Program-made: the position numbers and the translations under genes
Notes under the pieces: model-generated
Told to the model about the DNA's origin: nothing
Database searches by the model: none
Seen by the model: the letters and a program-made list of their open reading frames with translations, nothing else
Assembly: GCA_038065355.1 (NCBI GenBank)
Contig: JBBTRC010000005.1
Location: 30,530-94,529, forward strand
DNA: 64,000 bases
Direction of reading: 5' to 3'
DNA from: Patescibacteria group bacterium
Lineage (GTDB): Bacteria > Patescibacteriota > Minisyncoccia > Phycocordibacterales > UBA918
Shown: in pieces, positions 479 through 37,636 of the stretch
Layout of the letters: each line of letters begins with the position of its first letter
How positions within the stretch are numbered: position 1 is the stretch's first letter

Positions 479-2233
479 TTATTTGCGACGATCGGTTAAT
501 TTTTTAACGTCCATAATTTCCTTCTCAACGGCCTGTTCGGAAGTCTGGAGAGCCTTGTCAAAATGCTCGAGCATCGCCATTTCAACTTTTGACAATTTCT
601 TAGTCTTTCTGGTCTCAGTCAGCGATGTCTCATATTCACGAAGTTTCTGCTGAAGCGCGTTGAATTCACGATGCAAAATTTCGAGCGCCTCGGTTGATTC
701 GGCTCCGACTTTGGTCCTAAACCGTCGCCAGGACAGGTAGAGTAACCAGAAACCGAGCACCAATAACGCGATGAGACCGAGGAGCGGAATAACTACCGAG
801 AGTACGTTGATGAGAAGTGATCCAATACGTATAAAGCCAGACTGTTGAACGGCAATCCTAATAACTTCAGAACGTTCGCTCTTGGCCCCATAGCTATCGG
901 TTGCGATAGCGGAAAGTTCGTAGACGCCGAGCGAAAAGCGGGCTTCGGGAATGAAAGTAAATGTACCGTGTTCGTCGCTTTGTACTGTATACAGTGAGAC
1001 GGCGTTACCAATTTTTTGCAGTGAGACTTCGACCGTTGCACCGGGTTTTGTTTTACCTTTTATGACCGGAATGACTGTTTCGCTTACTTCAGTCGGGTAT
1101 TCGGTGAATACGGGCCTAGCGAAGGCTTCAATAGTAAGCGCGTACGTAGCGATAAGGCTGTTGGCGGCACGGTCAAATGCTTCGATGATCACCGTGTGAT
1201 AGCCGGGCAAAAGCGATGGCAACGCGATGGTATTTGAGGCGTTTTTGTCTATAAATTCAAATGGTTCCGCTGCGTCAATTTTGACCAGGTAGCGGCCTAT
1301 TCCTGAGGTGACATCGACTACCTTGAGCTTCAAAGTTGGCTGTGGATTACCTAGGTCGGAATTTTCCGTCGATTCGATGGTGAAAGAGATTGGCTTTTCC
1401 GTATCAACAGCCATTTTATAGTGAGTTACTTTTCCCCAGCCATCAGCATTTCTAAATTGGATGTGAAAATAAGAAGCTCCTTCCGGCAAGTCAGGCAGTG
1501 AAATTGAAGAAATTGGCTCATCATATACTTTGGTAGGAATAGTGCTCGGAGATTGATCGAGTAGAGTTCGGACGCTCGTCACTCCGCTTGGGACATTCCA
1601 GGTTAGCTCAGCAGTCTTTTGTGCATACCAGGCGTTTGTATCTGCGTGCGTGGTTGAAACGACTTGCGGTGCGGCCGGGGTATTGGCCGGCGCTACGTAT
1701 TCGATTACTTCAGGCGTCGGCGCTATCGTGGCCGCTTGAATCGTGTAACTGCCGCCATTCATGGCAGTAAGCACATTCGTGCCTTTGCCGTCATTAGCCA
1801 GGACCGAACCACCGGTAAAGGAAACCCGGGGTGCTCCCGCACCGGCCGCTCGGAACGTGATGGTCATAATGGCACCGGCACTGCCGGTGTAGCCAGTCGG
1901 CGATCCGCCGCTAAAACTGATAGTTCCGGCACTGTTTGAAAATGTTGGCTCGGTAACCCAGAGGTTGAATATCGAACTCGACCGACTGACGGCAGTGACC
2001 GAGAGTTCTCGCGGGTTAAAGCTTAACGTACCGTCAGCGGCATTCACCGCTTGCCCGTTCGTGTTTACCATCACTCGTACAGAAAATGTACCGTTTGCTT
2101 GGTACACCCCAGTGGCTGGAGAAAGTGATAAGGTCGCGGCTTCGGCCGACGAAGCCAGCGAAAAAGTAAAAAACAGTAGCGCAAAAGCAAAAAATAATTT
2201 TTTGATGGGTAGTTGTGTAAAATAGCTAGTCAT
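479..2233 (-). CDS. Scaffoldin-like membrane protein. Signal peptide, N-terminal cohesin-like domain, Ig-like region, single TM helix, cytoplasmic coiled-coil tail. Paralog of 30818..32356.
   Basis: 584-aa ORF. Cohesin-like signature SIFNLWVTEPTFSNSAGTISFSGGSPTGYTGSAGAIMTITFRA. TM LLGLIALLVLGFWLLYL followed by a heptad-rich charged tail. Collinear similarity to the 512-aa ORF at 30818..32356. Confidence 0.75.
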   Translation of the reverse strand: MTSYFTQLPIKKLFFAFALLFFTFSLASSAEAATLSLSPATGVYQANGTFSVRVMVNTNGQAVNAADGTLSFNPRELSVTAVSRSSSIFNLWVTEPTFSNSAGTISFSGGSPTGYTGSAGAIMTITFRAAGAGAPRVSFTGGSVLANDGKGTNVLTAMNGGSYTIQAATIAPTPEVIEYVAPANTPAAPQVVSTTHADTNAWYAQKTAELTWNVPSGVTSVRTLLDQSPSTIPTKVYDEPISSISLPDLPEGASYFHIQFRNADGWGKVTHYKMAVDTEKPISFTIESTENSDLGNPQPTLKLKVVDVTSGIGRYLVKIDAAEPFEFIDKNASNTIALPSLLPGYHTVIIEAFDRAANSLIATYALTIEAFARPVFTEYPTEVSETVIPVIKGKTKPGATVEVSLQKIGNAVSLYTVQSDEHGTFTFIPEARFSLGVYELSAIATDSYGAKSERSEVIRIAVQQSGFIRIGSLLINVLSVVIPLLGLIALLVLGFWLLYLSWRRFRTKVGAESTEALEILHREFNALQQKLREYETSLTETRKTKKLSKVEMAMLEHFDKALQTSEQAVEKEIMDVKKLTDRRK

Positions 2234-3284
2234 ATAGAGAAGTGGGTGTTTCTATTTCTTTGTTCATTTCTTCCTCCTCGGGCGTAGCCAACCTCTTCCG
2301 ACGTCGGATGACATGCGTGACAACGATGCCGCCCACGACGAGCAACATGACCACCAAGAGAGCCAACACTCCGTTAAGAATCTGTACTGTAGCAATACCA
2401 CGCATGCTTGAATCCGGCACCAGGGTTGCAATGTATTCGTTCCCGGCCTTATCAAGCGCCCGTACACGGATAATGCTGTTGAGCGATTGGTCTTTGAGCA
2501 CGTAGGGACTGCGGGCAGTTATCCATGGTGCATCGGCGCGGCCCCAGATGAAGGTGCCAAATTCAGCTAGTGGCTGTTCTATTACTTGGTACTGGTCGAC
2601 GCCGGTTTGTTTGTCGGTGGTGTTAAACACAATGTAGTGTTTGCCTCCAAACGCCAACGTGTCCTTTTCGAGAGCGATACTAAACTCTTCCGGCGGCCTA
2701 ACGTCAGCCTGGACTGCTTCACGCCACGGGTCTTCCAACACCGCACCAGCTTTTTTTGTGAGCGCTATGGTCGCGCCGTAGACGGTGGGAGCCACCACAG
2801 TACCTTGCCCGTCGTTTAAATAGGCCGATGTAGCAGGATCAAAGTCAATATGAGCCACTGCGTCGTTCTCTCCACCAATAGCAAAGCCGGGTGATCTAAA
2901 AATTATGTTGATGAGATTATTGGTGAGGCGCGGGTCGCCTGAAATGCGACCGCAGTAACCATTTGGAATTCCGCCGGCAAAAGTGATAGTGCGTTTGTCC
3001 TTGTTAATGATGGGGTTTTCAACCCAGACATTAAAAATCGAATCTCCGATGGAGATATCAATCGGCACGACATTTTCGGTGTAAGTAATGACGGCGTCAA
3101 TCGCGTTCACGCATTCTTGTGCCGCCTCATCAACATCGAGCCGAACCGCGAGTGTGATGGCATCGCCGCGGTTGATCTCGCTGTGACCCGGGTCTATATA
3201 CAGAGACGCGGCAGTGGCCGAAAACGGCACAGCAACGCTACAAAAAAACAGCCCGAGGATAGCAATTCCTAACTTCCCTTTCAT
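2226..3284 (-). CDS. Secreted cohesin-like domain protein with C-terminal TM anchor and basic RRRKR tail.
   Basis: 352-aa ORF. Signal peptide. Motif IFNVWVENPIINKDKRTITFAGGIPNGYCG resembles the cohesin-like domains of 479..2233 and 30818..32356. C-terminal LALLVVMLLVVGGIVV + RRRKR. Overlaps the downstream gene by 8 nt. Confidence 0.7.
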   Translation of the reverse strand: MKGKLGIAILGLFFCSVAVPFSATAASLYIDPGHSEINRGDAITLAVRLDVDEAAQECVNAIDAVITYTENVVPIDISIGDSIFNVWVENPIINKDKRTITFAGGIPNGYCGRISGDPRLTNNLINIIFRSPGFAIGGENDAVAHIDFDPATSAYLNDGQGTVVAPTVYGATIALTKKAGAVLEDPWREAVQADVRPPEEFSIALEKDTLAFGGKHYIVFNTTDKQTGVDQYQVIEQPLAEFGTFIWGRADAPWITARSPYVLKDQSLNSIIRVRALDKAGNEYIATLVPDSSMRGIATVQILNGVLALLVVMLLVVGGIVVTHVIRRRKRLATPEEEEMNKEIETPTSLYD

Positions 3285-3335
3285 ATTCTAGATTATAGCA
3301 GTGAGACAACTCTGAAATGTAACCTGTGCACATAC

Positions 3336-3371
3336 AAAAAACCCTTCTCGTGGTGGGAGATAGGGTTTTTT
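3336..3371 (-). terminator. Stem-loop flanked by A/T runs (aaaaaaccc...gggtttttt); candidate intrinsic terminator after the 3399..4556 gene.
   Basis: Inverted repeat with T-run visible on both strands, 28-60 nt downstream of the stop codon at 3399. Confidence 0.5.
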
Positions 3372-3398
3372 GATTACTCCAAGCTTAGAGCCAATTTT

Positions 3399-4556
3399 TT
3401 AGAAAACTGGTGTTGCTACGTATGTCAACGTAGCTGTGTAGTCGCTAGCTGCTTCCTGCAAGCCGCCAATTTCTACTTTGTAACCGACACGAGTGGTTCC
3501 TTCTCCCTGTCCGGTGCCATCAGCGGGACCGGTGTGCCGAAACACTTCAACTGGTGACGTGAGAGCCGCAACAAAGCGATCCCCGCCGCTACCTACGTTG
3601 AAAGGATTGGTAAGTCCACTCGTGAGAGTGTCGTCATCTGAAGCAACGCCCCAGTGACCGTACGTATCTTCATCTCCGAGAGTCTCAGATGGCGCTTCCC
3701 AAGCAACGGCAACAGTATCTCCGTTACCGTTTCGGAACGAATCGATATCGGCACCATTGGTTGAGCTGAGTTGCTGGTCTGTGACTACCGTGACGACGAA
3801 ACCGTTGCGGGCGTTCGTTGTCACCGCGAGATCTTGAGCGGCAGTACTGGCTGTGTTGGCAGACAGTTCACCAAACGGAATTGTGGTGGCCGTTGTGGCA
3901 CCTCCGGTCGTGTCAGCTGTGTTGACTGCTTGGCCGCTTGTGACTCCACTCACTGTAAAAGTAAAGATGGTGTCGACAGAAGCGGTAACAGTCACTGAGC
4001 TAAGAATCATGACACGAGTTGAACCCGTGTCTGATGCTCCGGCTGTTGCGTTGATCTCATACGAACCAGCGGCAGGGTTGGTGAGCTGTGCGTTACCAGC
4101 ACCTCCTGAAGTGGCGTTGAGGCCAATTTCAATGGTGGTGGTACCGTTCGTTGGAATCGAGCCTCCGTCACCTGCACAAAACGTGATGGTGAGAGTCGTT
4201 CCTGAAAACGCTGCACTCGCTTGTTCCGAACCCGTACAATCAGCCGCTAACGTGAAATCTGAGGTGGTCGCAACGTCAATGTCGGTGTCATTCACTGAAC
4301 CAACGACGAATGGACCATCTGCAAAATCAAGTGTTATGGTTGACCCGTTTGCTACTCCGGTCGGAGTGGTAAACACGATGGTATGGTCTGACGCAACAGT
4401 CGGCGCTGAATCCGAAAGTGTGTCGCTAAAAGAGCTGACATTAGCAGCTTCCGCAAAGCGGAGTGACGGTAAACCTACTGACCAAAGAAAGATGGCGAGG
4501 CCCACAATCGCTGCTGTGGCTTGGAGCACGGAGAACGTTTGTGACGTTCTGTGCAT
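3399..4556 (-). CDS. Secreted Thr/Gly/Ser-rich beta-rich protein, 385 aa, monocistronic. Paralog of 36482..37636. Candidate major surface structural subunit.
   Basis: Signal peptide. Central ~170 aa near-identical to the 36482..37636 product (SDHTIVFTTPTGVANG...AADCTG...AAFSGTTLTITFCAGDGGSIP). Both end ...TLTY(V/I)ATP(V/T)F. Own hairpin downstream. Confidence 0.7.
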   Translation of the reverse strand: MHRTSQTFSVLQATAAIVGLAIFLWSVGLPSLRFAEAANVSSFSDTLSDSAPTVASDHTIVFTTPTGVANGSTITLDFADGPFVVGSVNDTDIDVATTSDFTLAADCTGSEQASAAFSGTTLTITFCAGDGGSIPTNGTTTIEIGLNATSGGAGNAQLTNPAAGSYEINATAGASDTGSTRVMILSSVTVTASVDTIFTFTVSGVTSGQAVNTADTTGGATTATTIPFGELSANTASTAAQDLAVTTNARNGFVVTVVTDQQLSSTNGADIDSFRNGNGDTVAVAWEAPSETLGDEDTYGHWGVASDDDTLTSGLTNPFNVGSGGDRFVAALTSPVEVFRHTGPADGTGQGEGTTRVGYKVEIGGLQEAASDYTATLTYVATPVF

Positions 4557-4706
4557 ATACTCTACGTTGTATTAGCTCACAGACTTATAGCACGTGGTGT
4601 GTGCTACAACCAAGAAAACTTGTGTCGACATACTGGTCTCCACTCCGGTATGCTGAAAAGACGAACTGTGAACATACGTATTTGGTAACACTCGGCTGAA
4701 GCATCC

Positions 4707-4745
4707 CCGGCACCTTCTCTCGTCACTGCCGAGAGAAGGTGCCGG
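4707..4745 (-). terminator. Perfect 16-bp GC-rich hairpin (ccggcaccttctctcg / cgagagaaggtgccgg, 7-nt loop) downstream of the dockerin gene. No U-tract. Terminator-like or regulatory structure.
   Basis: Exact inverted repeat read directly from the sequence, in the 288-nt intergenic region 4557..4844. Confidence 0.4.
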
Positions 4746-4844
4746 GCAGTAGCATTAAATTGACTACCTCCCAAATATGTACTCCTTCATTGTACGATGC
4801 ACCCCAATCTATCCCTTGCAGTTATGCACAAATCTTTATTCATT

Positions 4845-5978
4845 TTATCCGCTCCAATTAAAAAGAAGAATCGAGAAGTCCTCAAGACTCACCCGACCGT
4901 TCCCGTTAATGTCAGCCGGGGGGTCTGAGTCTCCGCCATTGGTTTGCCACCAAAAAATCAAAATTGAAAAGTCGGTAAGATTAATTTTGCCATCGCGATT
5001 CAAGTCAGAGGGTGTAGTCGCACGACCTTCTATGCCCACAAAAAGCTGCAGGGAGCTGCTGAAACTACTTTGTGACGTGAGTGGCGGCGTACCGGCCACC
5101 GTGCGGGCGCGGAGTGTGTGTTCAGCTATGGATAACTGACTGGTGTTTAGACTAATGCTCCAGCTACCGTTAGCCGCCACGCTGGTTCGCTCAATGACGG
5201 TGCTGTTGTCGACATGTAGCTCAAGGGTGGTGTTGGGAACAGACTGACCAGATACAGTGACAGCCGCTCCTGGAATCACATTTGGGTTCGTGACTCGTAT
5301 CGTAGGCGGTAACAGCACGCCGTTAATATTCGTAATGGCGCCTTGCGTCACATCAAAAGTAGTATTGAGGGTGATCGACCGCGTGCCGCTCGTGTCGGTT
5401 GACCACACTCCAAGGGTGGCAGTTCCGGGCGATGCTTCAGCAGCGAACTCAAACGCGCCGCTACTGTTTGACTGTACTGAGCCGACAGATTCAGTGTCAA
5501 TTAAAAAATTTACAGTTCGCGACGGATAGGCTCTTCCGATAACGTTAATTTGGGTGTCTCCAAGATCACGATTACTACCACCGCCGCCGCCAGAGGAGCC
5601 GCCCGAGGAGCCGCCGCCGCCCGAACCGGCCGGCTCGACTTCACAAATTGCCGAGCAGAAGTCACCGTCGGTGTTGTTACCGTCGTCACATTCTTCTTGG
5701 TGAATTGTTTGCAAAATTCCGTCGCCGCAGTAAGGTCCAAATAAACACGAAACGGTGCACTGCCTACCGGCTATGGTTTGGCTATACACTCCGGTTTCGC
5801 CCGGCACGTCACATTGCTCACCGGGATCAACAATGATATTGCCACAAACACTTAAAGTGAGAGTGGTAGTAGCGGTAAACTGTGCCGCTACCGGTGTGGG
5901 CGTAAAGACTCCTAGCGCGTAAACGCACACCAGGGCTACCACCGCAGAGAATGTACAAAAAATGCTAACCTTTCCCAT
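4845..5978 (-). CDS. Secreted dockerin-containing protein with Myxococcus-type cysteine-rich repeats, a Gly/Ser linker and Ig-like repeats. Paralogous C-terminal region to 32919..34814.
   Basis: 377-aa ORF. Signal peptide. Cys-rich repeats (CGNIIVDPGEQCD...CGDGILQ...EECDDGNNTDGDFCSAIC). Linker GGGGSSGGSSGGGGGS. C-terminal duplicated dockerin-type segment DLNRDGKINLTDFSILIFWW...DINGNGRVSLEDFSILLFNW. Confidence 0.75.
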   Translation of the reverse strand: MGKVSIFCTFSAVVALVCVYALGVFTPTPVAAQFTATTTLTLSVCGNIIVDPGEQCDVPGETGVYSQTIAGRQCTVSCLFGPYCGDGILQTIHQEECDDGNNTDGDFCSAICEVEPAGSGGGGSSGGSSGGGGGSNRDLGDTQINVIGRAYPSRTVNFLIDTESVGSVQSNSSGAFEFAAEASPGTATLGVWSTDTSGTRSITLNTTFDVTQGAITNINGVLLPPTIRVTNPNVIPGAAVTVSGQSVPNTTLELHVDNSTVIERTSVAANGSWSISLNTSQLSIAEHTLRARTVAGTPPLTSQSSFSSSLQLFVGIEGRATTPSDLNRDGKINLTDFSILIFWWQTNGGDSDPPADINGNGRVSLEDFSILLFNWSG

Positions 5979-6924
5979 GACGCTTTCGTCGGCGTATGTG
6001 TAGGAAGTAGAGAATCACAATAAGCAGTGAGAAAATCGGCAACAAGACTGAAACTTTGTGCGCGAGTGAAAGCCCAATAAAGCCGAAGCTTGCGACCTGC
6101 AGCGTACCCTCCGGCAAAATACTAAGGCTAAGGTCGCCCTCCTGTTTTATATCTTCCCCATTAAGAATTCGATATCGTGCAATGTAGCTGTCAGCGGGCA
6201 GACGAGTCGGTAATTCGGCCAATACCTCACCGGTCGCGTATGGCGCTATCGGTTTCATTTTGCCAATGTTTTTTGTCTCCTCAAGTAGTACTTTGCCAGT
6301 CCGATCATAAATACGAAAATCCACTTTCGAAGGTGCAATATCGACGTTGCCAGTGTTTTCCACTAACATTTTAAAGCGGATTTTTCCGGGGAAAAATAAC
6401 CACCCGAGCTTGTGCCCTTCGTTTAAATCATCAACGGCCACTTTTCTAATGCGAAAATCTTTTATCTGTTTATCAATGACTGACAACTCAATGTCAACGA
6501 GTGCGCCGAGAGAAATACTCACCGCGCCTATTGCCACTTGTCCGTCCTCCGGCACCGTGCGAATGCGAATCGAACCTTCGTATTCCTTAAACTCAGCATC
6601 AGACGGCACGGTGACCCGTACTGTCATAGGTACCTTTTGTTCACCTCGCGGCAAGGAAATATTTTCACCCTCAACTATTTCTATCCAGGATTCAATTTCT
6701 GGAGCGTCGATGGTGATCTCCGCTTTTTGCGCCACATCAGGGTCACCGCGTACCAGGAGAATTTGCTGTTCATACACTGAGTTGCGAGTCAGGCTGGTGT
6801 TCTTCACATACGGCGGTGTAATACCAAAACCAGCAAAAACATCAGTCACGCCGGCACTGAAAAAAAACACTGGTACCAGCATAGAGACCACACACAGCTG
6901 TCGCGCTAACCCGCCCATGGACAA
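5965..6924 (-). CDS. Tail-anchored cell-surface protein: signal peptide, beta-rich ectodomain, C-terminal TM and RRRKRHGKG tail. Paralogous architecture to 35286..36356.
   Basis: 319-aa ORF. N-terminal signal LVPVFFFSAGVTDVFA. C-terminal LLPIFSLLIVILYFLHI + RRRKR. Overlaps the dockerin gene start by 14 nt. Confidence 0.65.
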   Translation of the reverse strand: MSMGGLARQLCVVSMLVPVFFFSAGVTDVFAGFGITPPYVKNTSLTRNSVYEQQILLVRGDPDVAQKAEITIDAPEIESWIEIVEGENISLPRGEQKVPMTVRVTVPSDAEFKEYEGSIRIRTVPEDGQVAIGAVSISLGALVDIELSVIDKQIKDFRIRKVAVDDLNEGHKLGWLFFPGKIRFKMLVENTGNVDIAPSKVDFRIYDRTGKVLLEETKNIGKMKPIAPYATGEVLAELPTRLPADSYIARYRILNGEDIKQEGDLSLSILPEGTLQVASFGFIGLSLAHKVSVLLPIFSLLIVILYFLHIRRRKRHGKG

Positions 6925-12323: not shown

Positions 12324-12382
12324 GTGAATGGCCCTCCTTAGGCCGTACAATTCTTGGCAGGATTGCCCTACTTCTATCTTTC

Positions 12383-30704: not shown

Positions 30705-30716
30705 GCGTACAAGCCC

Positions 30717-32356: not shown

Positions 32357-32381
32357 AAGAACTGAAAGAGCTGGTCGTTGA

Positions 32382-32855
32382 TTATTCTTTTTGAGACACC
32401 GTTCCCTTGGTGCCTCGAGTGACTTTTAATTTTACTTTCTCCTTCTCACCCGGCTTCAGCAATGGAAGAATGAGGATGAGAACACCATTTTTAATTTTTG
32501 CTTCGGCTTTCTCAATGTTGACACTTTCCGGCAGAATAATGCGCCGGTAAAAATCTCCCCACACGCACTCTTCTGCAACGAACGCTCCTTTGACTTTGGT
32601 TTTGGGGAACACGATGTACTCCGGCCGCACACGCTTTCCTTCGATGAGGACAATGTCAGCGTCACCCTCAATCGAGACGTGCACATCGTTCATATCAGCA
32701 CCAGCAGATTGTGCGTACACGACAATCATGTGTTCATTTTGGAACACATCGACGTGTAGTTGCGCCACTTTATCAACCGCGGTTTCTTCCGCATCTGATT
32801 GTAGCGATTCGCCGGATCGAACTCCCCTCCCCTTAAGCCGCTGCAGAAAAGACAT
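32382..32855 (-). CDS. Small heat-shock protein, Hsp20/alpha-crystallin family.
   Basis: 157-aa ORF with alpha-crystallin domain hallmarks (HVDVFQNEHMIVVYA...GDFYRRIILPESVNIEKAEAKIKNGVLILILP). Confidence 0.8.
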   Translation of the reverse strand: MSFLQRLKGRGVRSGESLQSDAEETAVDKVAQLHVDVFQNEHMIVVYAQSAGADMNDVHVSIEGDADIVLIEGKRVRPEYIVFPKTKVKGAFVAEECVWGDFYRRIILPESVNIEKAEAKIKNGVLILILPLLKPGEKEKVKLKVTRGTKGTVSQKE

Positions 32856-32918
32856 ACTTCTACATTATATAGTGTAGTTTTTCTTTTTAACTCACTTTTA
32901 CCCACACACGGAAAGTGC

Positions 32919-34814
32919 TTAACCCGTCCAATTGAAGAGCATGATTGAAAAGTCGGTGAGGTTTACACGACCGTCGCGGTTGATATCGGCCGGTGGATCT
33001 GAATCTCCGCCGCTCCCATTCCACCAAAACAGCAAAATTGAAAAGTCGGTGAGGTTTACACGACCGTCGCGGTTGAGGTCTGCGTTCAGTGGTACCGACG
33101 CTGACTGTCCGACGCCATAGAACGTGTAGTTCGAAAAGTTCGTACTCACGCCGCTGGTTTGTACAGATTTTGCTCGTACCTGGTAGGTACCGACGGAAAA
33201 GCCGTCTGTGTTTGTGGTGGCTGTCCACTTGCCGCTAGCATCCGCTGTCGCAGTGATAGCTGTACCACCAGTATTCACTTTGCCATTCTCGAGGGTGATG
33301 TTGGAATTTGGAAGACCGTACCCAGAAAACGTGACTGTTTGCCCAGGTGAGACTGGATTCGGACTTACTTTTATTGAGGGTGCTACGTTCACATTTGAAA
33401 GCGTGGAGGTTCGGGCACCAGTGACTGTAAATGATGTACTAAATGTCGAAGAACGGACAGCGTCAGGACCCTCGGCGTAGACGCCGAAGGTGTAGGCACC
33501 ACGGGCTATTTCGTCGAGTGTGAGAGAATACACGCCGGTGCTATTACTTCTTACCGTTTGTGCAACCTTGCCATCAACTAAAGTGGTAACGGTGCTGTTT
33601 GGGTAGGCATGTCCGGAAATGATGACTCGGCCGTCACCGCTTTGGTATGGTGCATCAGTTGATTCAAAACCGCCTCCAGCCGTATCGCCATCGTCTCCAC
33701 CCGAACCTCCTCCGCCACCACCACCCGAACCACCCGAACCCTCATCTTCACCCTCTTCCGGTTCTTCGCCGTCCGAACCGCCCGTGCTGCCGCCGGCACC
33801 GCTACCGGTTCCCGAGCCTTCATTTCCCGAACCGGTACCACTACCCTCAACGTCTCCTTCGGTATTTGGATCGCCGGTTGGAGTATCGTTGACTGTAAAC
33901 GTAATTATGAAGTCGTCGGTGTTAAAGTTGCCTTCGTCGTCGATACAGCGCACATAGAAAGTCTCTGTGGTGTTCGGTGTCACCGATACCACCTGTGAAT
34001 GGAAAACGAAGCCGGTGTTCGCGAAAACTAGCGACATTGAATTGAAATCGGTACCAGCCACAGTATCGTACCGACAGACAGCCAATTCGTCAGTCTCAAG
34101 CGAGAGTTCGACGCTCAGCGTGGTACCACCAACCGTACTGGTCGGTGCTCCGTTAAAGCGGTATGGCGGCACGACCTCGGTAGTGTCTACGTTCGGCACC
34201 GACACCTTTTCGACAATCGCAATTAAGAAGCCGGCGCGGGCGACGAGACCACCGTCATAGATTTCCATACGCACCTCATGGGTGCCCACTGTAGCCGAGT
34301 TCACGATTGGCTCCACGTCGCCAGCGGTCGTAGTCGTGCCAGTCGAGGTGCTGTAAGTAACAGAAGCCGGTACTGCATTTGATGTGTGATTGCCAACTCG
34401 AAACTGAATACGCTCCCCATTGCTTAACCCCGAGTCCGGCGCTAGTGTGTACCGTAGTAAGCCAGGGGTTCCTGGAGTAATCTCCACTTGGTCTACGCCG
34501 GCGGCGGCTGTGGCCGCCGCCGGCCTCGGCGTGCCGTCCACATACATTTCAACATTTCTTATAGCAAAGGTGGAAGTGGCCAATATTTCAAACCCAGCTG
34601 GCGGAGTAATCTCGATGACGCCCCCCGGCGACACGTCCGTGTTGAGCCGAAAATCAAACGTGTGGTTGGATTGGAAATTAGGGCCGGAGTCACTAAGCGT
34701 GTCTTTGTACTCAAGAATATTAAGCGCCTCTACTCGTCCTGCAGTCAGTAAAGATAGTACTCCGAGTACGAGTACAAGTGCCAAAAACGTCCACGCTTTC
34801 TGTACGGCGCTCAT
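32919..34814 (-). CDS. Secreted dockerin-containing protein with Ig-like modules and a long Gly/Ser/Glu linker. Dockerin paralog of 4845..5978.
   Basis: 631-aa ORF. Signal peptide. Linker GSGTGSGNEGSGTGSGAGGSTGGSDGEEPEEGEDEGSGGSGGGGGGGSGG. C-terminal DLNRDGRVNLTDFSILLFWW...DINRDGRVNLTDFSIMLFNW. Confidence 0.75.
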   Translation of the reverse strand: MSAVQKAWTFLALVLVLGVLSLLTAGRVEALNILEYKDTLSDSGPNFQSNHTFDFRLNTDVSPGGVIEITPPAGFEILATSTFAIRNVEMYVDGTPRPAAATAAAGVDQVEITPGTPGLLRYTLAPDSGLSNGERIQFRVGNHTSNAVPASVTYSTSTGTTTTAGDVEPIVNSATVGTHEVRMEIYDGGLVARAGFLIAIVEKVSVPNVDTTEVVPPYRFNGAPTSTVGGTTLSVELSLETDELAVCRYDTVAGTDFNSMSLVFANTGFVFHSQVVSVTPNTTETFYVRCIDDEGNFNTDDFIITFTVNDTPTGDPNTEGDVEGSGTGSGNEGSGTGSGAGGSTGGSDGEEPEEGEDEGSGGSGGGGGGGSGGDDGDTAGGGFESTDAPYQSGDGRVIISGHAYPNSTVTTLVDGKVAQTVRSNSTGVYSLTLDEIARGAYTFGVYAEGPDAVRSSTFSTSFTVTGARTSTLSNVNVAPSIKVSPNPVSPGQTVTFSGYGLPNSNITLENGKVNTGGTAITATADASGKWTATTNTDGFSVGTYQVRAKSVQTSGVSTNFSNYTFYGVGQSASVPLNADLNRDGRVNLTDFSILLFWWNGSGGDSDPPADINRDGRVNLTDFSIMLFNWTG

Positions 34815-34858
34815 TGCCTATATATTGTACCGTTCCCGAATGGCCAAAAACGAATGTA

Positions 34859-35260
34859 TTACACAGTTACGGCGTTTCTTTCTTCGCGCGAGCGCAAGTA
34901 GTCTAGCGTATAGTTCAACAAAATGAGCACCAGCAAAATAAACAAGATACTGGCAAGGACGTAGGTTGAGTAATTTTCACTTCCCCCAGAGCCAAGCCCG
35001 ATGTTGAGCTCGCGTTCTTTGAGCGCCGCCTCGCGAGCGTCAAGTTCCCGCTTTTGCGCGGTAAGCTCGGCCGTGAGCTGATTTAATTCGGTCGGCGCAA
35101 CACTGGCACCTACCCCAATGACACTTGCCACATAAGACTGCGTACCATGAGAAAGTACGGCAGTGCGGCTAAACAGAAGTCCGCTATCAAACACGAGTAC
35201 CAGCGCCAGCACGAGCGCGCCTACACGAAGCAATTTATGATAGTGCGTGTGTTCCATCAC
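34859..35260 (-). CDS. Small two-TM membrane protein with an intervening coiled-coil segment; unknown function.
   Basis: 133-aa ORF. Hydrophobic segments LRVGALVLALVLVF and LASILFILLVLILL. Heptad-like LTAELTAQKRELDAREAALKERE. Confidence 0.5.
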   Translation of the reverse strand: MMEHTHYHKLLRVGALVLALVLVFDSGLLFSRTAVLSHGTQSYVASVIGVGASVAPTELNQLTAELTAQKRELDAREAALKERELNIGLGSGGSENYSTYVLASILFILLVLILLNYTLDYLRSREERNAVTV

Positions 35261-35285
35261 ACATATATTGTACCAAAACTTGTAG

Positions 35286-36356
35286 TTAAGCGAACAAGGT
35301 AAGGAGAATAATGAGGAAAAACGCCGTCATAAAAAGCAGTGCGACCGTAAGAAAAAGCGTAGTCGGCGGTCCTGAACGGCGGCGGCGGTGAACTATTCTC
35401 GTGCTACCCTGCGTTAAATGAGCGAGTGTTCGGCTGATGTACATGCGTACAAAGATGAACGTCACGAGAAGCAGTACCGCGAGCACACCGAGAGCCGGAC
35501 CAATAATATGGAGGGGTAAAATCCAGAACGACACCGTGCTCGACATGGTCTTTTTGGCACCGACATCGCCATACGATGCGCTAAGGACAGCCTCATACCG
35601 GCCAAAACCGATGCTGTCGCCGGTCCATTGCGATGCGAATTCTTGTGACCGATGTGGAAACACCCCTCCTTGTGATTTGTTGAAATTTACAGTGTCAACT
35701 TTCTGCCCCAGCATGTTTTCAATTTCAATCAAGCCAATTGGTCGGACGAGTACGTTACCGACGTTTTCAATTTTTGCAGAAAAATCAACATTTTGCGAAC
35801 CGTAAAAGAATTTGTTGGTGGAAAACTGTCTAATACTTGCTTCTTCTACCACCTCGCCAGTGACGCGAATGCTGATGATATTGCCGACTTGGTAGCCGAC
35901 CGCCGCGCCGCTCTTTTCGATTTCTGGCGCATCCACAGAAATAAACACACTTCCAAAGTGACTGCCGGGGGACGCGTCTTCTGGTAGGTTGAGCTGAAAG
36001 GTAATTCTTTCACTGCCGCCGGCCGGAAGTGTAATAGACGAGACCGGCAACACGATCCAGTCGCTCAACTCCATTCCGGTCTCCTCTCCTTCGTCAGCAA
36101 ACACTGGCACACTACCGTCGCGAACGTCGGAAATGTTTCGGGTGAAGAGAAAGAAGGTTTGTTCGGAGTTGTTAAGGTTTTTTATGGTGACAGTGTGTTC
36201 TTCGTGTACTCCTGGATCCAGTGTCTCTTCAATCAGTGCCGGTTCGATGCTTACGCCAACCTGTTGAGCTGCAACCGACTGTGGCTGAAGAGTCCATACA
36301 AAAATAAAACAAAAAAAGACAAGCGTCGCTCGCCAACTAGAAAAATTTCCACTCAC
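35286..36356 (-). CDS. Tail-anchored cell-surface protein: signal peptide, beta-rich ectodomain, C-terminal TM segments with RRRRS basic stretch. Paralogous architecture to 5965..6924.
   Basis: 356-aa ORF. Signal FFCFIFVWTLQPQSVAA. C-terminal hydrophobic helices plus HRRRRSGPP. Confidence 0.65.
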   Translation of the reverse strand: MSGNFSSWRATLVFFCFIFVWTLQPQSVAAQQVGVSIEPALIEETLDPGVHEEHTVTIKNLNNSEQTFFLFTRNISDVRDGSVPVFADEGEETGMELSDWIVLPVSSITLPAGGSERITFQLNLPEDASPGSHFGSVFISVDAPEIEKSGAAVGYQVGNIISIRVTGEVVEEASIRQFSTNKFFYGSQNVDFSAKIENVGNVLVRPIGLIEIENMLGQKVDTVNFNKSQGGVFPHRSQEFASQWTGDSIGFGRYEAVLSASYGDVGAKKTMSSTVSFWILPLHIIGPALGVLAVLLLVTFIFVRMYISRTLAHLTQGSTRIVHRRRRSGPPTTLFLTVALLFMTAFFLIILLTLFA

Positions 36357-36433
36357 AGTGCCATAACATTAGGTATAACCCACCCATCATACCACCGCGC
36401 CTAAAAGCACTGTCGAGTTGTTCACGGTCCAGG

Positions 36434-36465
36434 TACACAAAAACCTCCCGAGGGAGGTGTTTGTG
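36434..36465 (-). terminator. Rho-independent terminator after the 36482..37636 gene: GC stem cctcc-cgag-ggagg extended with an A/U-rich stem, followed by a U-run on the minus strand.
   Basis: Inverted repeat 20-50 nt downstream of the stop codon at 36482. Confidence 0.5.
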
Positions 36466-36481
36466 CGTAGGAACTACTACG

Positions 36482-37636
36482 TTAGAAAGTTGGAGTGGCT
36501 ATGTAGGTGAGCGTGGTGTTGTAGTCGTCAGCTGCTTCTTGGAGGGCAGTGATTTCTATTTGATACAGCACGTCAGCTTGGCCTACGTTTTGCGTCGAGC
36601 CGTCGGCAGGTCCATTGTGGTGGAACACTTCTCGCGGTGTGGTTGAGGCGGCAATGAATTCATTGGCCCCAAATTCACCGGAGTAGAATCCGCCAACAGA
36701 GTTCAAGTCTCCATCGTTTGATGTGAGGCCCCAGTGACCCCAAGTGGTCTCGTCGTTGATGTTATTTGATGGGGAGTTCCAAGCAGTGCCCGTGTCTGAC
36801 ACATCGGAAGCTTCGTCAAAGTTGTCAATGATGGCGCCGTTTGAAGATTCAAGGTCGCCGTCAGATTCTATTGTCACTACGAAGCCGTTACGGGCATTGG
36901 TTGCGACATTGAGTCTTTGAGCGAGAGACTTGATCTGGTTGGCCGTAAGTACACCGAAGTCAATGAGGGTGGGTGAAGTTGAGCCGGTGGTTGAAGTACC
37001 GTTAACTGCGGTTGTAGTAGCAAGACCAGTAATAGTGAAGTCGAAGGTGGTATTGACGACCGCCGTGACCAGCACGTTATCGATTATTGCAATTCGAGTG
37101 CGACCCGTGTCTGAAGTCCCCGCGGTGATTACAAGTTCGTATGATCCAGCCACTGGATTTGTAAGCTCGGCGTTGCCGGCTACTTGCGAAGTTGCATTAA
37201 GACCGATTTCAATGGTAGTGGTGCCGTTGGCCGGGATTGAACCACCATCTCCAGCACAAAACGTAATAGTGAGAGTGGTACCGGAGAAGGCTGCGCTGGC
37301 ATCTTCAGCACCGGTGCAGTCAGCTGCCAGAGTGAAGTCTGAAGTGGTGGCAACGTCGATATCAGTGTGATCGACAGTACCGACCACAAACGGACCGTCT
37401 GAAAAGTCGACAGTAATCGTTTCACCGTTTGCGACACCAGTTGGGGTTGTAAACACAATGGTGTGATCTGAAGCAACGCTCACATCTGAGTCAGTGAGGG
37501 TGTCACTGACTTGTACTAAGTTAGCTGCTTGAGCAGTGTTGAGGTACACTCCGGCAGAGAAGAGTACCACTGCGCAGGCAACAAGTGTCGCGACCACCCG
37601 TTGCGAAATGCCAACGTGAGTTGGATTTGCGGACAT
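36482..37636 (-). CDS. Secreted Thr/Gly/Ser-rich beta-rich protein, 384 aa. Close paralog of 3399..4556.
   Basis: Signal peptide ending AQA. Long near-identical block with 3399..4556. Same C-terminal ...NTTLTYIATPTF. Own terminator and a ~300-nt AT-rich upstream region. Confidence 0.7.
   Translation of the reverse strand: MSANPTHVGISQRVVATLVACAVVLFSAGVYLNTAQAANLVQVSDTLTDSDVSVASDHTIVFTTPTGVANGETITVDFSDGPFVVGTVDHTDIDVATTSDFTLAADCTGAEDASAAFSGTTLTITFCAGDGGSIPANGTTTIEIGLNATSQVAGNAELTNPVAGSYELVITAGTSDTGRTRIAIIDNVLVTAVVNTTFDFTITGLATTTAVNGTSTTGSTSPTLIDFGVLTANQIKSLAQRLNVATNARNGFVVTIESDGDLESSNGAIIDNFDEASDVSDTGTAWNSPSNNINDETTWGHWGLTSNDGDLNSVGGFYSGEFGANEFIAASTTPREVFHHNGPADGSTQNVGQADVLYQIEITALQEAADDYNTTLTYIATPTF

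What the first reader, a model, noticed from the sequence alone, without database searches (positions are those of the whole stretch)
479..37636. Two paralogous cell-surface gene cassettes bracket the giant-protein / ABC-exporter block
Cassette A (479..6924) and cassette B (30818..37636) encode the same four protein types. These are a TM-anchored cohesin-like scaffoldin with a cytoplasmic coiled-coil tail (479..2233 vs 30818..32356), a dockerin-bearing secreted protein (4845..5978 vs 32919..34814), a tail-anchored beta-rich surface protein (5965..6924 vs 35286..36356) and a monocistronic 385-aa secreted protein (3399..4556 vs 36482..37636). Gene order within the two cassettes is shuffled. Cassette A has an extra cohesin-like gene and cassette B has an extra Hsp20 gene and a small membrane protein. 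Between them lie a 5531-aa surface protein, an FN3 protein, a lipoprotein and a MacB-type ABC exporter, all on the same strand. Cohesin-like anchors, dockerin-bearing partners, an exporter and a giant adhesin in one locus look like a dedicated surface-assembly system, not scattered adhesin genes. The duplication points to diversifying selection or phase-variable use of alternative modules.
Basis: partly seen in the sequence, partly recalled or inferred. Interest (0 to 1): 0.8.

Follow-up and report, generated by a model that had tools for sequence, protein, structure and literature searches.

The report
Two ancient pilus-like surface gene cassettes
An uncultivated groundwater Patescibacteria genome carries two old, conserved copies of a surface gene set that looks like a distant version of the newly described CPR "Pam" pilus, here combined with cohesin-dockerin "plug and socket" parts that may fasten it to the cell membrane.

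Summary
All ORFs are at the stated coordinates and all four paralog pairs are homologous: 61%, 38% and 41% identity for three pairs, and profile level only for the fourth (E 1.7e-11). Cohesin (B1) and both dockerins (A4, B3) pass Pfam thresholds.

The reading of a recent, diversifying or phase-variable duplication does not hold. Gene order A5-A4-A3-A2-A1 recurs in 47 of 80 related Paceibacteria/Parcubacteria loci. The B module, including its Hsp20 gene, recurs even in distant Parcubacteria. Synonymous sites between the copies are saturated, and no long DNA repeats link them.

The 385-aa proteins are the main new point.
- They model as a nine-strand N-domain, a conserved unpaired linker and a C-domain.
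- They and their relatives specifically hit NCBIfam CPR_Pam_pilin_C, below its cutoff (best E 1.5e-10).
- The tail-anchored neighbours (A5, B5) are tandem Ig-like proteins with a C-terminal membrane helix, like the Pam chaperones PamC/PamD and WxLIP.
- B3 fuses a pilin-like N-domain and linker to a dockerin.

Best reading (about 0.5): Pam-like donor-strand pili fastened to membrane cohesin anchors through dockerin-bearing subunits. Filament formation and cohesin-dockerin binding are inferred, not shown. The roles of the MacB-type ABC system and the giant protein are unknown.

The parts
1..477 (-). 5' part of a conserved 226-aa membrane/helical protein, cut by the window start. The locus continues beyond it with a 225-aa cohesin+dockerin adaptor, a 588-aa protein and a second giant protein.
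   Evidence: The translation matches L001:6641-7321. The adaptor L001:7400-8077 has Cohesin E 7e-4 and Dockerin_1 22.8 bits against a 22.9 cutoff. 47 of 51 adaptor orthologs keep both dockerin loops.
479..2233 (-). A1: signal peptide, cohesin domain, middle Ig/FN3-like region, Big_13 Ig domain, TM helix (477-495) and a ~90-aa charged cytoplasmic tail. Proposed membrane anchor (socket).
   Evidence: 38% identical to B1. 27 of 36 family members hit Pfam Cohesin. Big_13 35.6 bits. TM scan. Invariant charged residues in the tail.
2226..3284 (-). A2: second, shorter cohesin-like membrane anchor (TM 305-323).
   Evidence: hhalign to the A1 family E 2.9e-27 over 254 columns. 2 of 32 members hit Pfam Cohesin. 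Present in 58 of 80 loci as A3-A2-A1.
3285..3398 (-). Terminator-like hairpin (AAAAAACCC...GGGUUUUUU) after A3, followed by a TGcTATAAT-like element ahead of A2.
   Evidence: Fold of -28.6 kcal/mol, z -2.3.
3399..4556 (-). A3: Pam-like pilin candidate. Signal peptide or N-terminal helix, nine-strand N-domain (41-184), conserved unpaired linker (185-197) and C-domain (198-383).
   Evidence: AF2 model pLDDT 85.7. NCBIfam CPR_Pam_pilin_C 19.2 bits, E 0.001; 20 of 40 family members hit it. Conservation peaks at the linker and C-domain. More than 1500 homologs, all named 'hypothetical'.
4845..5978 (-). A4: secreted protein with a conserved mature N-terminal strand (TATTTLTLS), cysteine-rich DUF4215/myxo_disulf repeat, Gly-rich linker, two Ig-like domains and a type I dockerin (plug).
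   Evidence: Dockerin_1 31.4 bits, DUF4215 37 bits. TIGR02232 49 bits. N-terminal motif conservation. Both Ca-loop motifs present. 41-44 of 54 orthologs keep both loops.
5965..6924 (-). A5: signal peptide, two Ig-like beta-sandwich domains and a C-terminal TM helix (287-316). Candidate membrane-anchored chaperone (PamC/D-like, WxLIP-like).
7015..8889 (-). M1: 624-aa secreted or N-anchored protein. Conserved mature N-terminus TATTTLTVLNTPP. Its C-terminal ~230 aa are shared with the end of the giant protein.
   Evidence: 33% identity to G residues 5321-5526. N-terminal motif. Conserved in 45 of 80 loci within M3-M2-M1-A5-A4-A3.
8967..10190 (-). M2: MacB-type permease (MacB_PCD + FtsX, 4 TM).
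   Evidence: Pfam 65.8 and 62.2 bits. 80-88% identical orthologs.
10211..11533 (-). M3: ABC ATPase with a ~210-aa helical C-terminal extension.
   Evidence: ABC_tran 107 bits. 74-87% identical orthologs.
11793..12350 (-). M4: lipoprotein (lipobox LTGC). Lineage-specific insert, probably not part of the system.
   Evidence: No homolog in any of the 80 related loci. Near-consensus promoter at 12410-12383.
12594..14099 (-). M5: secreted protein with FN3 domains.
   Evidence: fn3 70 bits, Pur_ac_phosph_N 75 bits. Conserved next to G.
14109..30704 (-). G: 5531-aa Thr/Gly/Ala/Ser-rich surface protein with an N-terminal TM or signal segment. Its C-terminal domain is shared with M1.
   Evidence: Only Ig_Rha78A_N and DUF2341 hit in Pfam. 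Composition and TM scan. C-terminus 45-69% conserved, N-terminus 26-36%.
30818..32356 (-). B1: cohesin membrane anchor, paralog of A1 (TM 413-431, charged cytoplasmic tail).
   Evidence: Pfam Cohesin 31.1 bits against 24.1..
32382..32855 (-). B2: Hsp20/alpha-crystallin protein with no signal peptide, conserved inside the B module.
   Evidence: HSP20 39.1 bits. In the same position in L067, L069, L073, L078, L081, L082 and in the distant loci L084 and L086.
32919..34814 (-). B3: pilin-like N-domain plus linker start (26-212), Ig-like domain, Gly-rich spacer, two Ig-like domains and a type I dockerin. Proposed filament-to-anchor adaptor.
   Evidence: hhalign to the A3 family E 1.5e-13, including the VAIVxxV..VDT linker. 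Dockerin_1 36.5 bits. B3-like proteins in L084 and L086 hit the A3 HMM at 1e-24 to 4e-29.
34859..35260 (-). B4: 133-aa protein with two hydrophobic segments and a helical middle. Conserved; function unknown.
   Evidence: TM scan. Orthologs in 11 of 80 loci as B6-B5-B4 and in L084 and L086.
35286..36356 (-). B5: tandem Ig-like, C-terminally membrane-anchored protein. Paralog of A5 and WxLIP/DUF916-like.
   Evidence: WxLIP_PGBD 23.8 bits against 27.3. 10 of 42 family members hit it, best E 1.8e-9. Two to three B5-like genes follow the pilin genes in L084 and L086.
36443..36458 (-). Terminator-like hairpin after B6 (ACCUCCCUCGGGAGGU plus a U run).
36482..37636 (-). B6: second Pam-like pilin candidate, paralog of A3.
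   Evidence: 61% identical to A3. N-domain 80% identical, C-domain 50%. Same motifs as A3.

Best explanation
The region is one large, class-wide conserved cell-surface appendage locus of Paceibacteria/Parcubacteria. It contains two ancient paralogous modules.

Each module encodes:
1. A major two-domain Ig-like subunit (A3, B6) that is a distant relative of the Pam pilins of CPR bacteria.
2. A tandem Ig-like protein held in the membrane by a C-terminal helix (A5, B5), playing the part of the PamC/PamD chaperones and related to WxLIP/DUF916.
3. A secreted dockerin protein (A4, B3).
4. One or two membrane-anchored cohesin proteins (A1, A2, B1).

Proposed mechanism:
- The subunits are exported by Sec. 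The membrane-anchored chaperone-like proteins hold them.
- They polymerise by donating the conserved inter-domain linker strand to the C-domain of the neighbouring subunit.
- A subunit that has the donor part but no acceptor domain ends the fibre. B3 carries a pilin N-domain and linker. A4 may do the same through its conserved N-terminal strand.
- That terminal subunit plugs its Ca-dependent dockerin into the cohesin of A1, A2 or B1. This fastens the fibre to the membrane.

The giant protein, M1, the FN3 protein and the MacB-type ABC system are co-inherited parts whose roles are not resolved. They may be an adhesin with its own export or mechanical device.

Shown: homology, domain content, architecture, conservation and synteny.

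Inferred: polymerisation, the chaperone role and cohesin-dockerin tethering.
For: Conservation and age:
- A5-A4-A3-A2-A1 occurs in 47 of 80 loci and M3-M2-M1-A5-A4-A3 in 45 of 80. The B order occurs in 6-11 loci.
- The order B module, giant protein, ABC block, A module sits on single contigs in two other genomes.
- The B module also occurs in distant Parcubacteria as pilin(s), 2-3 B5-like genes, B4-like, B3-like, Hsp20 and cohesin anchor.

Pilin link:
- The AF2 model of A3 (pLDDT 85.7) has a nine-strand N-domain, an unpaired segment at 185-197 and a second beta domain. PamA and PamB have a nine-strand NTD, a linker strand and a CTD.
- NCBIfam CPR_Pam_pilin_C is the only recurrent hit. It matches 20 of 40 family members (best E 6.3e-7).
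- It also matches 8 of 9 more distant relatives over the whole model (2-148 of 148), ending at their C-terminus. Scores are 20-41 bits, best E 1.5e-10.
- Across 77 sequences, the most conserved stretches are the C-terminal strand, C-domain segments, the linker VTASVDTIFTFT and an N-terminal strand. The Pam paper reports the same pattern: linker plus CTD site.
- Both genes have their own terminator-like hairpins, as expected for a subunit made in excess. PamA and PamB are among the ten most abundant proteins.
- In some relatives the pilin module sits at the C-terminus of larger proteins.

Chaperone-like proteins:
- A5 and B5 have a signal peptide, two Ig-like domains and a C-terminal TM helix. 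This is the architecture described for PamC/PamD and WxLIP.

Anchoring:
- Cohesin and dockerins pass Pfam thresholds.
- Both dockerin Ca-loops are kept in most orthologs, and dockerins in these loci are almost confined to the A4, B3 and adaptor families.
- B3 joins a pilin N-domain and linker to a dockerin.
Against: - All Pam-model scores lie below the curated cutoff of 55 bits. A3 itself matches only the first 44 model positions at 19.2 bits.
- I could not compare directly with PamA, PamB, PamC or PamD sequences or structures. They are absent from the PDB copies searched.
- Fold searches return generic tandem Ig adhesins, pilins and BslA/YweA. They return nothing specific.
- The A5 model is only moderately confident (pLDDT 69.7), and its matches are generic Ig and PapD-like folds.
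- No PapD Pfam hit was found in the A5/B5 family.
- No tip subunit or PamR-like terminator was identified.
- The C-terminal domain shared by M1 and the giant protein is not detectably related to the pilin C-domain (hhalign probability 2%).
- No multimer modelling could be run. Donor-strand exchange and cohesin-dockerin pairing are therefore untested.
- The Pam paper reports Pam pilins mainly in Saccharimonadia and Microgenomatia, with no cohesin, dockerin or ABC components.
Confidence: 0.5

Rival explanations
1. A non-filamentous cohesin-dockerin surface scaffold or surface layer, essentially the first reader's model. The membrane cohesin proteins display dockerin-bearing proteins. The abundant 385-aa Ig-like proteins form a coat or S-layer-like array, or act as monomeric adhesins. 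No donor-strand polymerisation occurs.
For: - Cohesin and dockerin modules are real and co-conserved.
- The fold of A3 matches many non-polymerising tandem-Ig adhesins (FnBPA, ClfB, SdrG) and the coat protein BslA/YweA.
- Pam-model scores are below the family cutoff.
Against: - It does not explain why the inter-domain linker is among the most conserved segments, nor why it is unpaired in the monomer model.
- It does not explain the specific, repeated CPR_Pam_pilin_C hits.
- It does not explain why a pilin-type N-domain and linker are fused to a dockerin in B3.
- It does not explain why tandem-Ig, membrane-anchored proteins always accompany the 385-aa genes.
Confidence: 0.27
2. A WxL/Csc-type cell-wall complex like those of lactobacilli and enterococci. 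In this model A5/B5 act as WxLIP proteins that hold secreted partner proteins (A3/B6) on peptidoglycan, with no fibre.
For: - B5 and 10 of 42 family members hit WxLIP_PGBD/DUF916 (best E 1.8e-9).
- WxLIP has the same architecture: signal peptide, two Ig-like domains and a TM helix. AF2 also predicts that it inserts a strand into its WxL partner.
- The C-terminus of A3 (TLTYVATP) loosely resembles the distal WxL motif. This rests on my own reading.
Against: - No WxL-domain (Pfam) hit in A3, B6 or 40 family members, even at E up to 10.
- DUF3324 was not detected.
- B5 itself is below the Pfam gathering score (23.8 against 27.3).
- The defining '1 WxLIP + 2 WxL' cluster rule is not met.
Confidence: 0.12
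3. A recent duplication maintained for antigenic diversification or phase-variable use of alternative modules.
For: - The N-domains of A3 and B6 are unusually alike in this genome (80% aa, against 50% for the C-domain). In one other genome they are 91% alike.
- An N-domain-only tree never separates the A and B copies (0 of 200 bootstraps). Some exchange or co-evolution between the two genes has therefore occurred.
Against: - Third-codon identity is about 0.3 in every region, including the N-domain. Only 33% of identical residues use the same codon.
- Orthologs of each cassette keep their own synteny in many species.
- The full-length tree separates the B-context copies in 170 of 200 bootstraps.
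- There are no long direct or inverted repeats, and no invertase or recombinase among the annotated genes of 1-41 kb.
Confidence: 0.03
4. An assembly artefact, that is a duplicated or chimeric contig.
For: None found.
Against: - The cassettes are only 43-76% identical at DNA level where they can be aligned.
- The identical locus is present in independent assemblies from Logan, ENA and NCBI, on contigs up to 523 kb.
- The same two-module layout exists in other species.
Confidence: 0.01

Closest known systems
Pam pilus system of CPR bacteria (PamA/PamB pilins, PamC/PamD membrane-anchored chaperones, PamR anchor; Troman et al., bioRxiv 10.64898/2026.03.03.709456)
   Same: - A secreted subunit of about 39 kDa with a nine-strand N-domain, a linker and a C-domain.
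- Conservation concentrated in the linker and C-domain.
- Specific but sub-threshold hits to the NCBIfam Pam pilin C-domain model.
- Adjacent tandem-Ig proteins with a C-terminal TM helix.
- Two pilin paralogs per genome, and a monoderm CPR host.
   Different: - Found in Paceibacteria/Parcubacteria, not Saccharimonadia or Microgenomatia.
- Scores lie below the family cutoff.
- No PamR-like (RbmA-like) anchor and no PamT-like tip subunit was found.
- Cohesin membrane anchors, dockerin-bearing subunits, an Hsp20, a MacB-type ABC system and giant proteins are present. None of these is mentioned for pam operons.
- The two pilin genes lie in two separate paralogous modules about 33 kb apart, not in one operon.
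Cohesin-dockerin systems (cellulosomal anchoring scaffoldins; non-cellulosomal cohesin/dockerin modules)
   Same: - A Pfam Cohesin domain on cell-anchored proteins.
- Type I dockerins with two Ca-binding F-hand loops on secreted partners.
- A small adaptor just outside the window that carries both a cohesin and a dockerin, like adaptor scaffoldins.
   Different: - One cohesin per protein rather than arrays.
- Anchoring by a TM helix plus a cytoplasmic tail, not by SLH domains or sortase.
- Dockerins sit on Ig-rich, pilin-like or Cys-rich proteins with no glycoside hydrolase or other enzyme domain.
- The host has no sign of fibre degradation in this locus.
WxL / WxLIP (DUF916-DUF3324) surface clusters of Lactobacillales (Csc clusters)
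   Same: - A tail-anchored tandem Ig-like protein encoded next to secreted beta-rich partners.
- DUF916 signal in B5 and its orthologs.
- A proposed strand insertion from WxLIP into its partner.
   Different: - No WxL domain and no DUF3324 detected.
- No LPXTG partner within the module.
- The cluster rule of one WxLIP plus two WxL proteins is not met.
Chaperone-usher (Pap/Fim) pili
   Same: - Ig-like subunits with an incomplete fold completed by a neighbour's strand (inferred here).
- The major subunit gene is followed by its own terminator.
   Different: - There is no outer membrane and no usher.
- The chaperone-like proteins are membrane-anchored.
- The donor element would be an internal linker, not an N-terminal extension.
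- No sequence similarity was found.
MacB-type (type VII) ABC systems
   Same: M2 has the MacB periplasmic core domain plus the FtsX four-helix permease. M3 is the ATPase.
   Different: - No membrane-fusion protein or outer-membrane partner.
- The ATPase has a ~210-aa C-terminal extension.
- The system is fixed in synteny between a giant surface protein and a pilus-like module. The substrate is unknown.

Membership tests
Pam pilin (NCBIfam NF058581 CPR_Pam_pilin_C) | Score at or above the curated cutoff (55 bits) of the family model | tested here: not met
   A3 scores 19.2 bits, E 0.001, over model positions 2-44 only. 20 of 40 family members hit, best E 6.3e-7. More distant relatives score 20-41 bits over the full model. 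This is a distant relative at most, not a member by the curated rule.
Pam pilin | Two-domain architecture: nine-strand beta-sandwich NTD, single linker strand, Ig-like CTD, N-terminal signal peptide | tested here: met
   AF2 model with pLDDT 85.7: helix 7-26, nine strands between 41 and 184, unpaired 185-197, beta domain 198-383. Description of PamA/PamB.
Pam pilin | Polymerisation by donation of the linker strand to the CTD of the adjacent subunit | not testable with these tools
   Only indirect evidence: the linker and C-domain are the most conserved parts, as in Pam. No multimer prediction or coordinates were available.
Pam pilus system | Membrane-anchored PapD/FimC-like chaperones (two Ig-like domains plus a C-terminal TM helix) encoded with the pilins | tested here: inconclusive
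Pam pilus system | PamR-like terminator/anchor (RbmA-like, two FnIII domains plus a C-terminal TM helix and an N-terminal donor strand) and a PamT-like single-domain tip | tested here: not met
   No such protein was recognised in the window. The TM-anchored proteins carry an N-terminal cohesin instead. The M1/G C-terminal domain is unrelated to the pilin CTD.
Cohesin-dockerin system | Cohesin domain (Pfam PF00963) at or above the gathering score | tested here: met
   B1 scores 31.1 bits against 24.1. 27 of 36 A1/B1-family members hit, best E 6e-11. A1 and A2 themselves qualify only through family and profile homology.
Cohesin-dockerin system | Dockerin (PF00404) at or above the gathering score, with a duplicated Ca-binding loop-helix | tested here: met
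   A4 scores 31.4 bits and B3 36.5 bits, against 22.9. Both loops are present: DLNRDGK.. and DINGNGR.. in A4, DLNRDGR.. and DINRDGR.. in B3. They are conserved in orthologs.
Cohesin-dockerin system | Physical, Ca-dependent cohesin-dockerin binding between the encoded partners | not testable with these tools
   Inferred only from co-conservation within one locus.
Cellulosome | Multi-cohesin scaffoldin plus dockerin-borne carbohydrate-active enzymes | tested here: not met
   There is one cohesin per protein. The dockerin proteins contain only Ig-like, Cys-repeat and pilin-like domains.
WxL / WxLIP cluster | WxLIP = DUF916 + DUF3324 + TM helix | tested here: inconclusive
WxL / WxLIP cluster | At least two WxL-domain proteins in the cluster | tested here: not met
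   No WxL Pfam hit in any window protein scanned, nor in 40 A3-family members at E up to 10.
MacB-type ABC system | MacB periplasmic core domain + FtsX permease + separate ABC ATPase | tested here: met
   M2: MacB_PCD 65.8 bits and FtsX 62.2 bits. M3: ABC_tran 107.3 bits.

The most novel reading that the evidence does not exclude
Paceibacteria build donor-strand-exchange (Pam-type) fibres that are fastened to the cell by a cohesin-dockerin joint. A terminating subunit with a pilin N-domain and linker (B3), or an N-terminal strand (A4), carries a dockerin. That dockerin plugs into a membrane-spanning cohesin protein whose conserved cytoplasmic tail could couple the fibre to the cell interior. 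If so, this would be the first pilus anchored through cohesin-dockerin modules. It would also be a conserved non-cellulolytic use of these modules across a major uncultivated lineage. The locus would combine two ancient paralogous fibre modules, a giant putative adhesin, an Hsp20 and a MacB-type ABC device.
Probability: 0.35. Interest if true: 0.85.

Novelty: new variant of a known kind. Interest (0 to 1): 0.7.

Why it matters
Paceibacteria/Parcubacteria are among the most abundant and least understood bacteria in groundwater. They are thought to live attached to hosts, yet their attachment apparatus is unknown. All proteins in this locus are annotated 'hypothetical'.

- **Size of the families.** The 385-aa family alone has more than 2000 cluster representatives.
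- **Reach of the Pam pilus.** If the reading is right, the Pam pilus described in 2026 from one cultured Saccharimonadia species extends, in a modified form, to a second large class.
- **A concrete anchoring mechanism.** The cohesin-dockerin joint would supply the anchor that the Pam study lacked in this lineage.
- **Testable protein pairs.** These are pilin-pilin, pilin-chaperone and dockerin-cohesin.
- **A link to Gram-positive systems.** The DUF916 signal in B5 hints that the WxL/WxLIP surface clusters of Gram-positive bacteria and the Pam system may share ancestry.

Tried and rejected
- **Direct WxL membership of A3/B6.** No Pfam WxL hit, even at E up to 10 across 40 members.
- **Profile searches of PDB sequences** with the A1/B1, A2, A5/B5 and A3 families. 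No cohesin, chaperone or pilin hit.
- **Foldseek against AFDB.** The library was unavailable.
- **Finding PamA/PamB structures in the PDB copies.** None present.
- **Bridging to Ca. Mycosynbacter with a homology search** seeded by the best Pam-scoring relative (P0386). It returned only Parcubacteria.
- **The shared C-terminal domain of M1 and the giant protein as a pilin-type acceptor domain** (giant tip adhesin). hhalign probability 2%.
- **Recent gene conversion as the cause of the 80% identical N-domains.** Rejected because synonymous sites are saturated.
- **Repeats or inverted repeats as a switch.** None found.
- **First NJ bootstrap with identity distances.** It gave only 9 of 30. A corrected-distance NJ gave 170 of 200 for the full length, 57 of 200 for linker plus C-domain, and 0 of 200 for the N-domain. 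The A/B split is therefore carried largely by the signal-peptide region and by synteny.
- **Literature searches** for cohesin or dockerin in Patescibacteria/CPR. Nothing found describing this locus.

Full report
**1. What is in the sequence**

I label them in window order.
- Cassette A: A1 479-2233, A2 2226-3284, A3 3399-4556, A4 4845-5978, A5 5965-6924.
- Middle block: M1 7015-8889, M2 8967-10190, M3 10211-11533, M4 11793-12350, M5 12594-14099, G 14109-30704.
- Cassette B: B1 30818-32356, B2 32382-32855, B3 32919-34814, B4 34859-35260, B5 35286-36356, B6 36482-37636.

Transcription runs from high to low coordinates. The real gene order is therefore B6-B5-B4-B3-B2-B1-G-M5-M4-M3-M2-M1-A5-A4-A3-A2-A1.

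**2. Are the four pairs homologous?**

Pairwise BLASTP gives:
- A3/B6: 61% identity over the full length, E 2e-140.
- A1/B1: 38% over 371 aa, E 1e-66, with a second segment aligning the tails.
- A4/B3: 41% over the C-terminal ~240 aa only, E 5e-51.
- A5/B5: 24% over 123 aa, E 6.5e-5, which is weak.

I built family profiles from orthologs in 80 related loci and compared them with hhalign.
- A5/B5 align over 274 columns, probability 97.3%, E 1.7e-11.
- The extra gene A2 matches the A1 family at E 2.9e-27.
- The N-terminal ~190 residues of B3 match the N-domain of A3 at E 1.5e-13.

All four pairs are therefore real paralogs. The dockerin pair shares only its C-terminal half.

**3. Domain assignments**

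- Pfam Cohesin passes its gathering score in B1 (31.1 against 24.1 bits). Dockerin_1 passes in A4 (31.4) and B3 (36.5), against 22.9.
- A1 itself gives no Cohesin hit, but 27 of 36 A1/B1-family members do (best E 6e-11). Only 2 of 32 A2-family members do.
- Both dockerins show the duplicated Ca-binding loop.
- B2 is an Hsp20. M2 and M3 form a MacB-type ABC pair. M5 carries FN3 domains.
- The giant protein has almost no Pfam content: only Ig_Rha78A_N and DUF2341.
- A1, A2 and B1 have an N-terminal signal segment, one TM helix near the C-terminus and a charged tail. A5 and B5 end in TM helices.
- I did not run a coiled-coil predictor. 'Coiled-coil tail' therefore remains a reading of the sequence.

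**4. Source and distribution**

- The exact A3 protein occurs on Hainich groundwater contigs and in an NCBI 'Patescibacteria group bacterium' MAG, on contigs up to 523 kb.
- A3 has more than 1500 close homologs, all named hypothetical, in Kaiserbacteria, Nomurabacteria and Parcubacteria.
- An exhaustive profile search finds 2122 cluster representatives at E <= 1e-3.
- A scan of species-representative genomes returned 80 loci. I annotated them with the window proteins.
- A5-A4-A3-A2-A1 occurs in 47 of 80 loci and M3-M2-M1-A5-A4-A3 in 45. G-M5-M3-M2-M1 occurs in 28, B6-B5-B4 in 11 and B3-B2-B1 in 6.
- Two other genomes carry both contexts on one contig, 38-45 kb apart, with a giant gene between them.
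- M4, the lipoprotein, has no counterpart in any locus.
- In much more distant Parcubacteria the B module recurs next to a giant FN3 protein. Its order there is one or two pilin-like genes, two or three B5-like genes, a B4-like gene, a B3-like dockerin protein, Hsp20 and cohesin anchors.

The cassettes are therefore ancient, vertically kept paralogs. The B type looks like the older and more widespread form.

**5. Against recent duplication, phase variation or artefact**

- Paralogs are far more diverged than orthologs. A5/B5 share about 22% identity, against 60-73% between A5 orthologs.
- The best DNA repeat between the cassettes is 162 nt at 70%. No inverted repeats flank either cassette.
- One unusual feature stands out. 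In this genome the N-domains of A3 and B6 are 80% identical. The signal-peptide region is 32% identical, the linker 53% and the C-domain 50%.
- One other genome shows 91% N-domain identity. Four others show 42-47%.
- Third-codon identity is about 0.3 throughout, and only a third of identical residues share a codon. This is not recent conversion.
- It reflects either an old exchange or selection keeping the two N-domains alike.
- In NJ trees, the B-context copies form one split in 170 of 200 bootstraps for the full length. They do so in 141 of 200 for the signal-peptide region, 57 of 200 for linker plus C-domain, and 0 of 200 for the N-domain.

**6. What the 385-aa proteins are**

- AlphaFold2 on a 40-sequence alignment gives a confident model (pLDDT 85.7). 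It has an N-terminal helix, nine strands between residues 41 and 184, an unpaired stretch at 185-197 and a second beta domain at 198-383.
- NCBIfam gave the key lead. A3 weakly hits NF058581, 'CPR_Pam_pilin_C, Pam pilus system pilin subunit' (E 0.001, 19.2 bits, cutoff 55).
- The hit is specific. It is the only recurrent family among 40 members, matching 20 of them (best E 6.3e-7).
- Eight of nine more distant relatives match the whole model (positions 2-148 of 148), ending at their C-terminus. Scores are 20-41 bits, best E 1.5e-10.
- The model comes from a 2026 preprint (10.64898/2026.03.03.709456). Cryo-EM of Ca. Mycosynbacter amalyticus filaments there identified PamA and PamB.
- Those pilins have a nine-strand NTD, a linker strand donated to the neighbour's truncated Ig-like CTD, and signal peptides. 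They are very abundant.
- They are encoded with PapD/FimC-like chaperones (PamC, PamD) that carry a C-terminal TM helix.
- In that paper the linker and CTD site are the most conserved parts.
- In my 77-sequence alignment the conservation maxima are the C-terminal strand (372-383), C-domain segments (247-274, 297-308), the linker (190-201, VTASVDTIFTFT) and an N-terminal strand (43-54).
- Both A3 and B6 are followed by terminator-like hairpins. This fits a subunit made in excess.

**7. The neighbours, read in that light**

- The AF2 model of A5 (pLDDT 69.7) has a signal helix, two beta-sandwich domains and a long C-terminal helix.
- B5 and 10 of 42 family members hit Pfam WxLIP_PGBD/DUF916 (best E 1.8e-9).
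- WxLIP is a signal peptide, two Ig-like domains and a TM helix. It is predicted to insert a strand into its WxL partner.
- A5 and B5 thus have the architecture of the PamC/PamD chaperones. The evidence is architectural and contextual, not a family assignment.
- B3 keeps the pilin N-terminal strand, N-domain and the start of the linker (VAIVExV..VDT). It then continues into other Ig-like domains, a Gly-rich spacer and the dockerin.
- B3-like proteins in distant loci hit the A3 HMM at 1e-24 to 4e-29.
- The A4 and M1 families share a strongly conserved mature N-terminus, TATTTLT(L/V). I read this as a possible donor-type strand, but that is speculation.
- Just outside the window lies a 225-aa protein with both a cohesin-like domain and a dockerin. 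It is conserved downstream of A1 in 47 of 51 cases.

**8. Proposed mechanism, and what is inferred**

Shown:
- Homology, domain content, membrane topology signals, conservation pattern and synteny.

Inferred:
- A3 and B6 polymerise through linker-strand donation.
- A5 and B5 act as membrane-anchored chaperones.
- B3, and perhaps A4, terminate the fibre and dock it to the cohesin anchors A1, A2 and B1.
- The small cohesin+dockerin protein acts as an adaptor.

Unresolved:
- The roles of the giant protein, M1, M5, Hsp20, B4 and the MacB-type ABC system. They are tightly co-inherited.
- I could not link the shared C-terminal domain of M1 and G to the pilin C-domain (probability 2%).

**9. Comparison with known systems**

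- **Pam pilus.** This is the closest match, but the locus fails the curated sequence cutoff. It lacks recognisable PamR and PamT. It lies in a class the paper does not name, and it has cohesin, dockerin, ABC and Hsp20 components that the paper does not mention.
- **Cohesin-dockerin systems.** It shares the modules but not the multi-cohesin scaffoldin or the enzymes.
- **WxL clusters.** It shares the WxLIP-like protein but not the WxL domains.
- **Literature.** Searches found no description of this locus.

**10. Verdict**

- The 'dedicated surface-assembly system' reading is supported and sharpened.
- The 'diversifying or phase-variable duplication' reading is rejected.
- I rate the finding a new variant of a known kind: a Pam-like fibre system with a cohesin-dockerin anchor. 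Confidence in the full mechanism is about 0.5, and interest is 0.7.

Noticed in passing
window 3399-4556 vs 36482-37636: The N-domains of the two pilin-like paralogs are 80% identical in amino acids, against 50% for the C-domains. Synonymous sites are saturated (third-position identity about 0.3). The same pattern (91%) occurs in one other genome and is absent in four others. This suggests an old domain exchange, or selection keeping the two exposed N-domains alike.
   Followed up: partly
window 32382-32855; L084:19729-20181; L086:10660-11127: A cytoplasmic-type Hsp20 gene with no signal peptide sits at the same position, between the dockerin protein and the cohesin anchor, even in distant Parcubacteria. 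Its role in an extracellular system is unexplained.
   Followed up: partly
window 3399-4556, residues 1-38: The signal-peptide region of A3 orthologs is unusually conserved: mean 64% identity, with several invariant residues. This is odd for a Sec signal. It could mean a retained membrane anchor or a dedicated recognition step.
   Followed up: no
window 11793-12350 and 12383-12410: The lipoprotein gene (lipobox LTGC) is absent from all 80 related loci. A near-consensus promoter (TTGACT-16-TATAAT) precedes it. It is a lineage-specific insertion into the conserved block.
   Followed up: partly
window 42804-47580 and 47608-49141: A sortase gene overlaps the end of a 1381-aa SpaA/SdrD_B-type surface protein gene. 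Beside them lie an ECF-type sigma factor and an unknown 322-aa protein. This may be a second, sortase-dependent surface system next to the locus.
   Followed up: no
window 37934-42731 and 50129-53393: Flanking genes are a Y-family DNA polymerase (conserved next to B6 in other genomes), a GH18 protein, a CAP-domain protein, an M23 peptidase with a PG-binding domain and an LRR protein. The wider region is rich in envelope and secreted proteins.
   Followed up: no
window 60001-62000: GC content drops to 0.37 from about 0.50. The region encodes a queuosine-salvage protein and a methyltransferase and may have been acquired horizontally.
   Followed up: no
L078:12806-14572 (also L019, L067, L082): Other genomes carry an MsbA-like ABC half-transporter (TMD+NBD, 588 aa) between the B4-like and B3-like genes. 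The window genome lacks it.
   Followed up: partly
representatives P0294, P0324, P0328, P0343, P0352, P0359: In some relatives the pilin-like module forms the C-terminal end of much larger proteins (570-1022 aa). One 3077-aa protein contains nine N-domain-like repeats. These could be tip-adhesin fusions.
   Followed up: no
window 4845-5978 and 7015-8889, mature N-termini: The A4 and M1 families share a strongly conserved TATTTLT(L/V) segment directly after the predicted signal-peptide cleavage site. It may be a strand used for docking into another subunit.
   Followed up: partly
L041: One related locus is rearranged. An A3-type gene follows a truncated B1, next to fragmentary B6 and B3. This shows that the two modules can recombine or be misassembled in some MAGs.
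   Followed up: no
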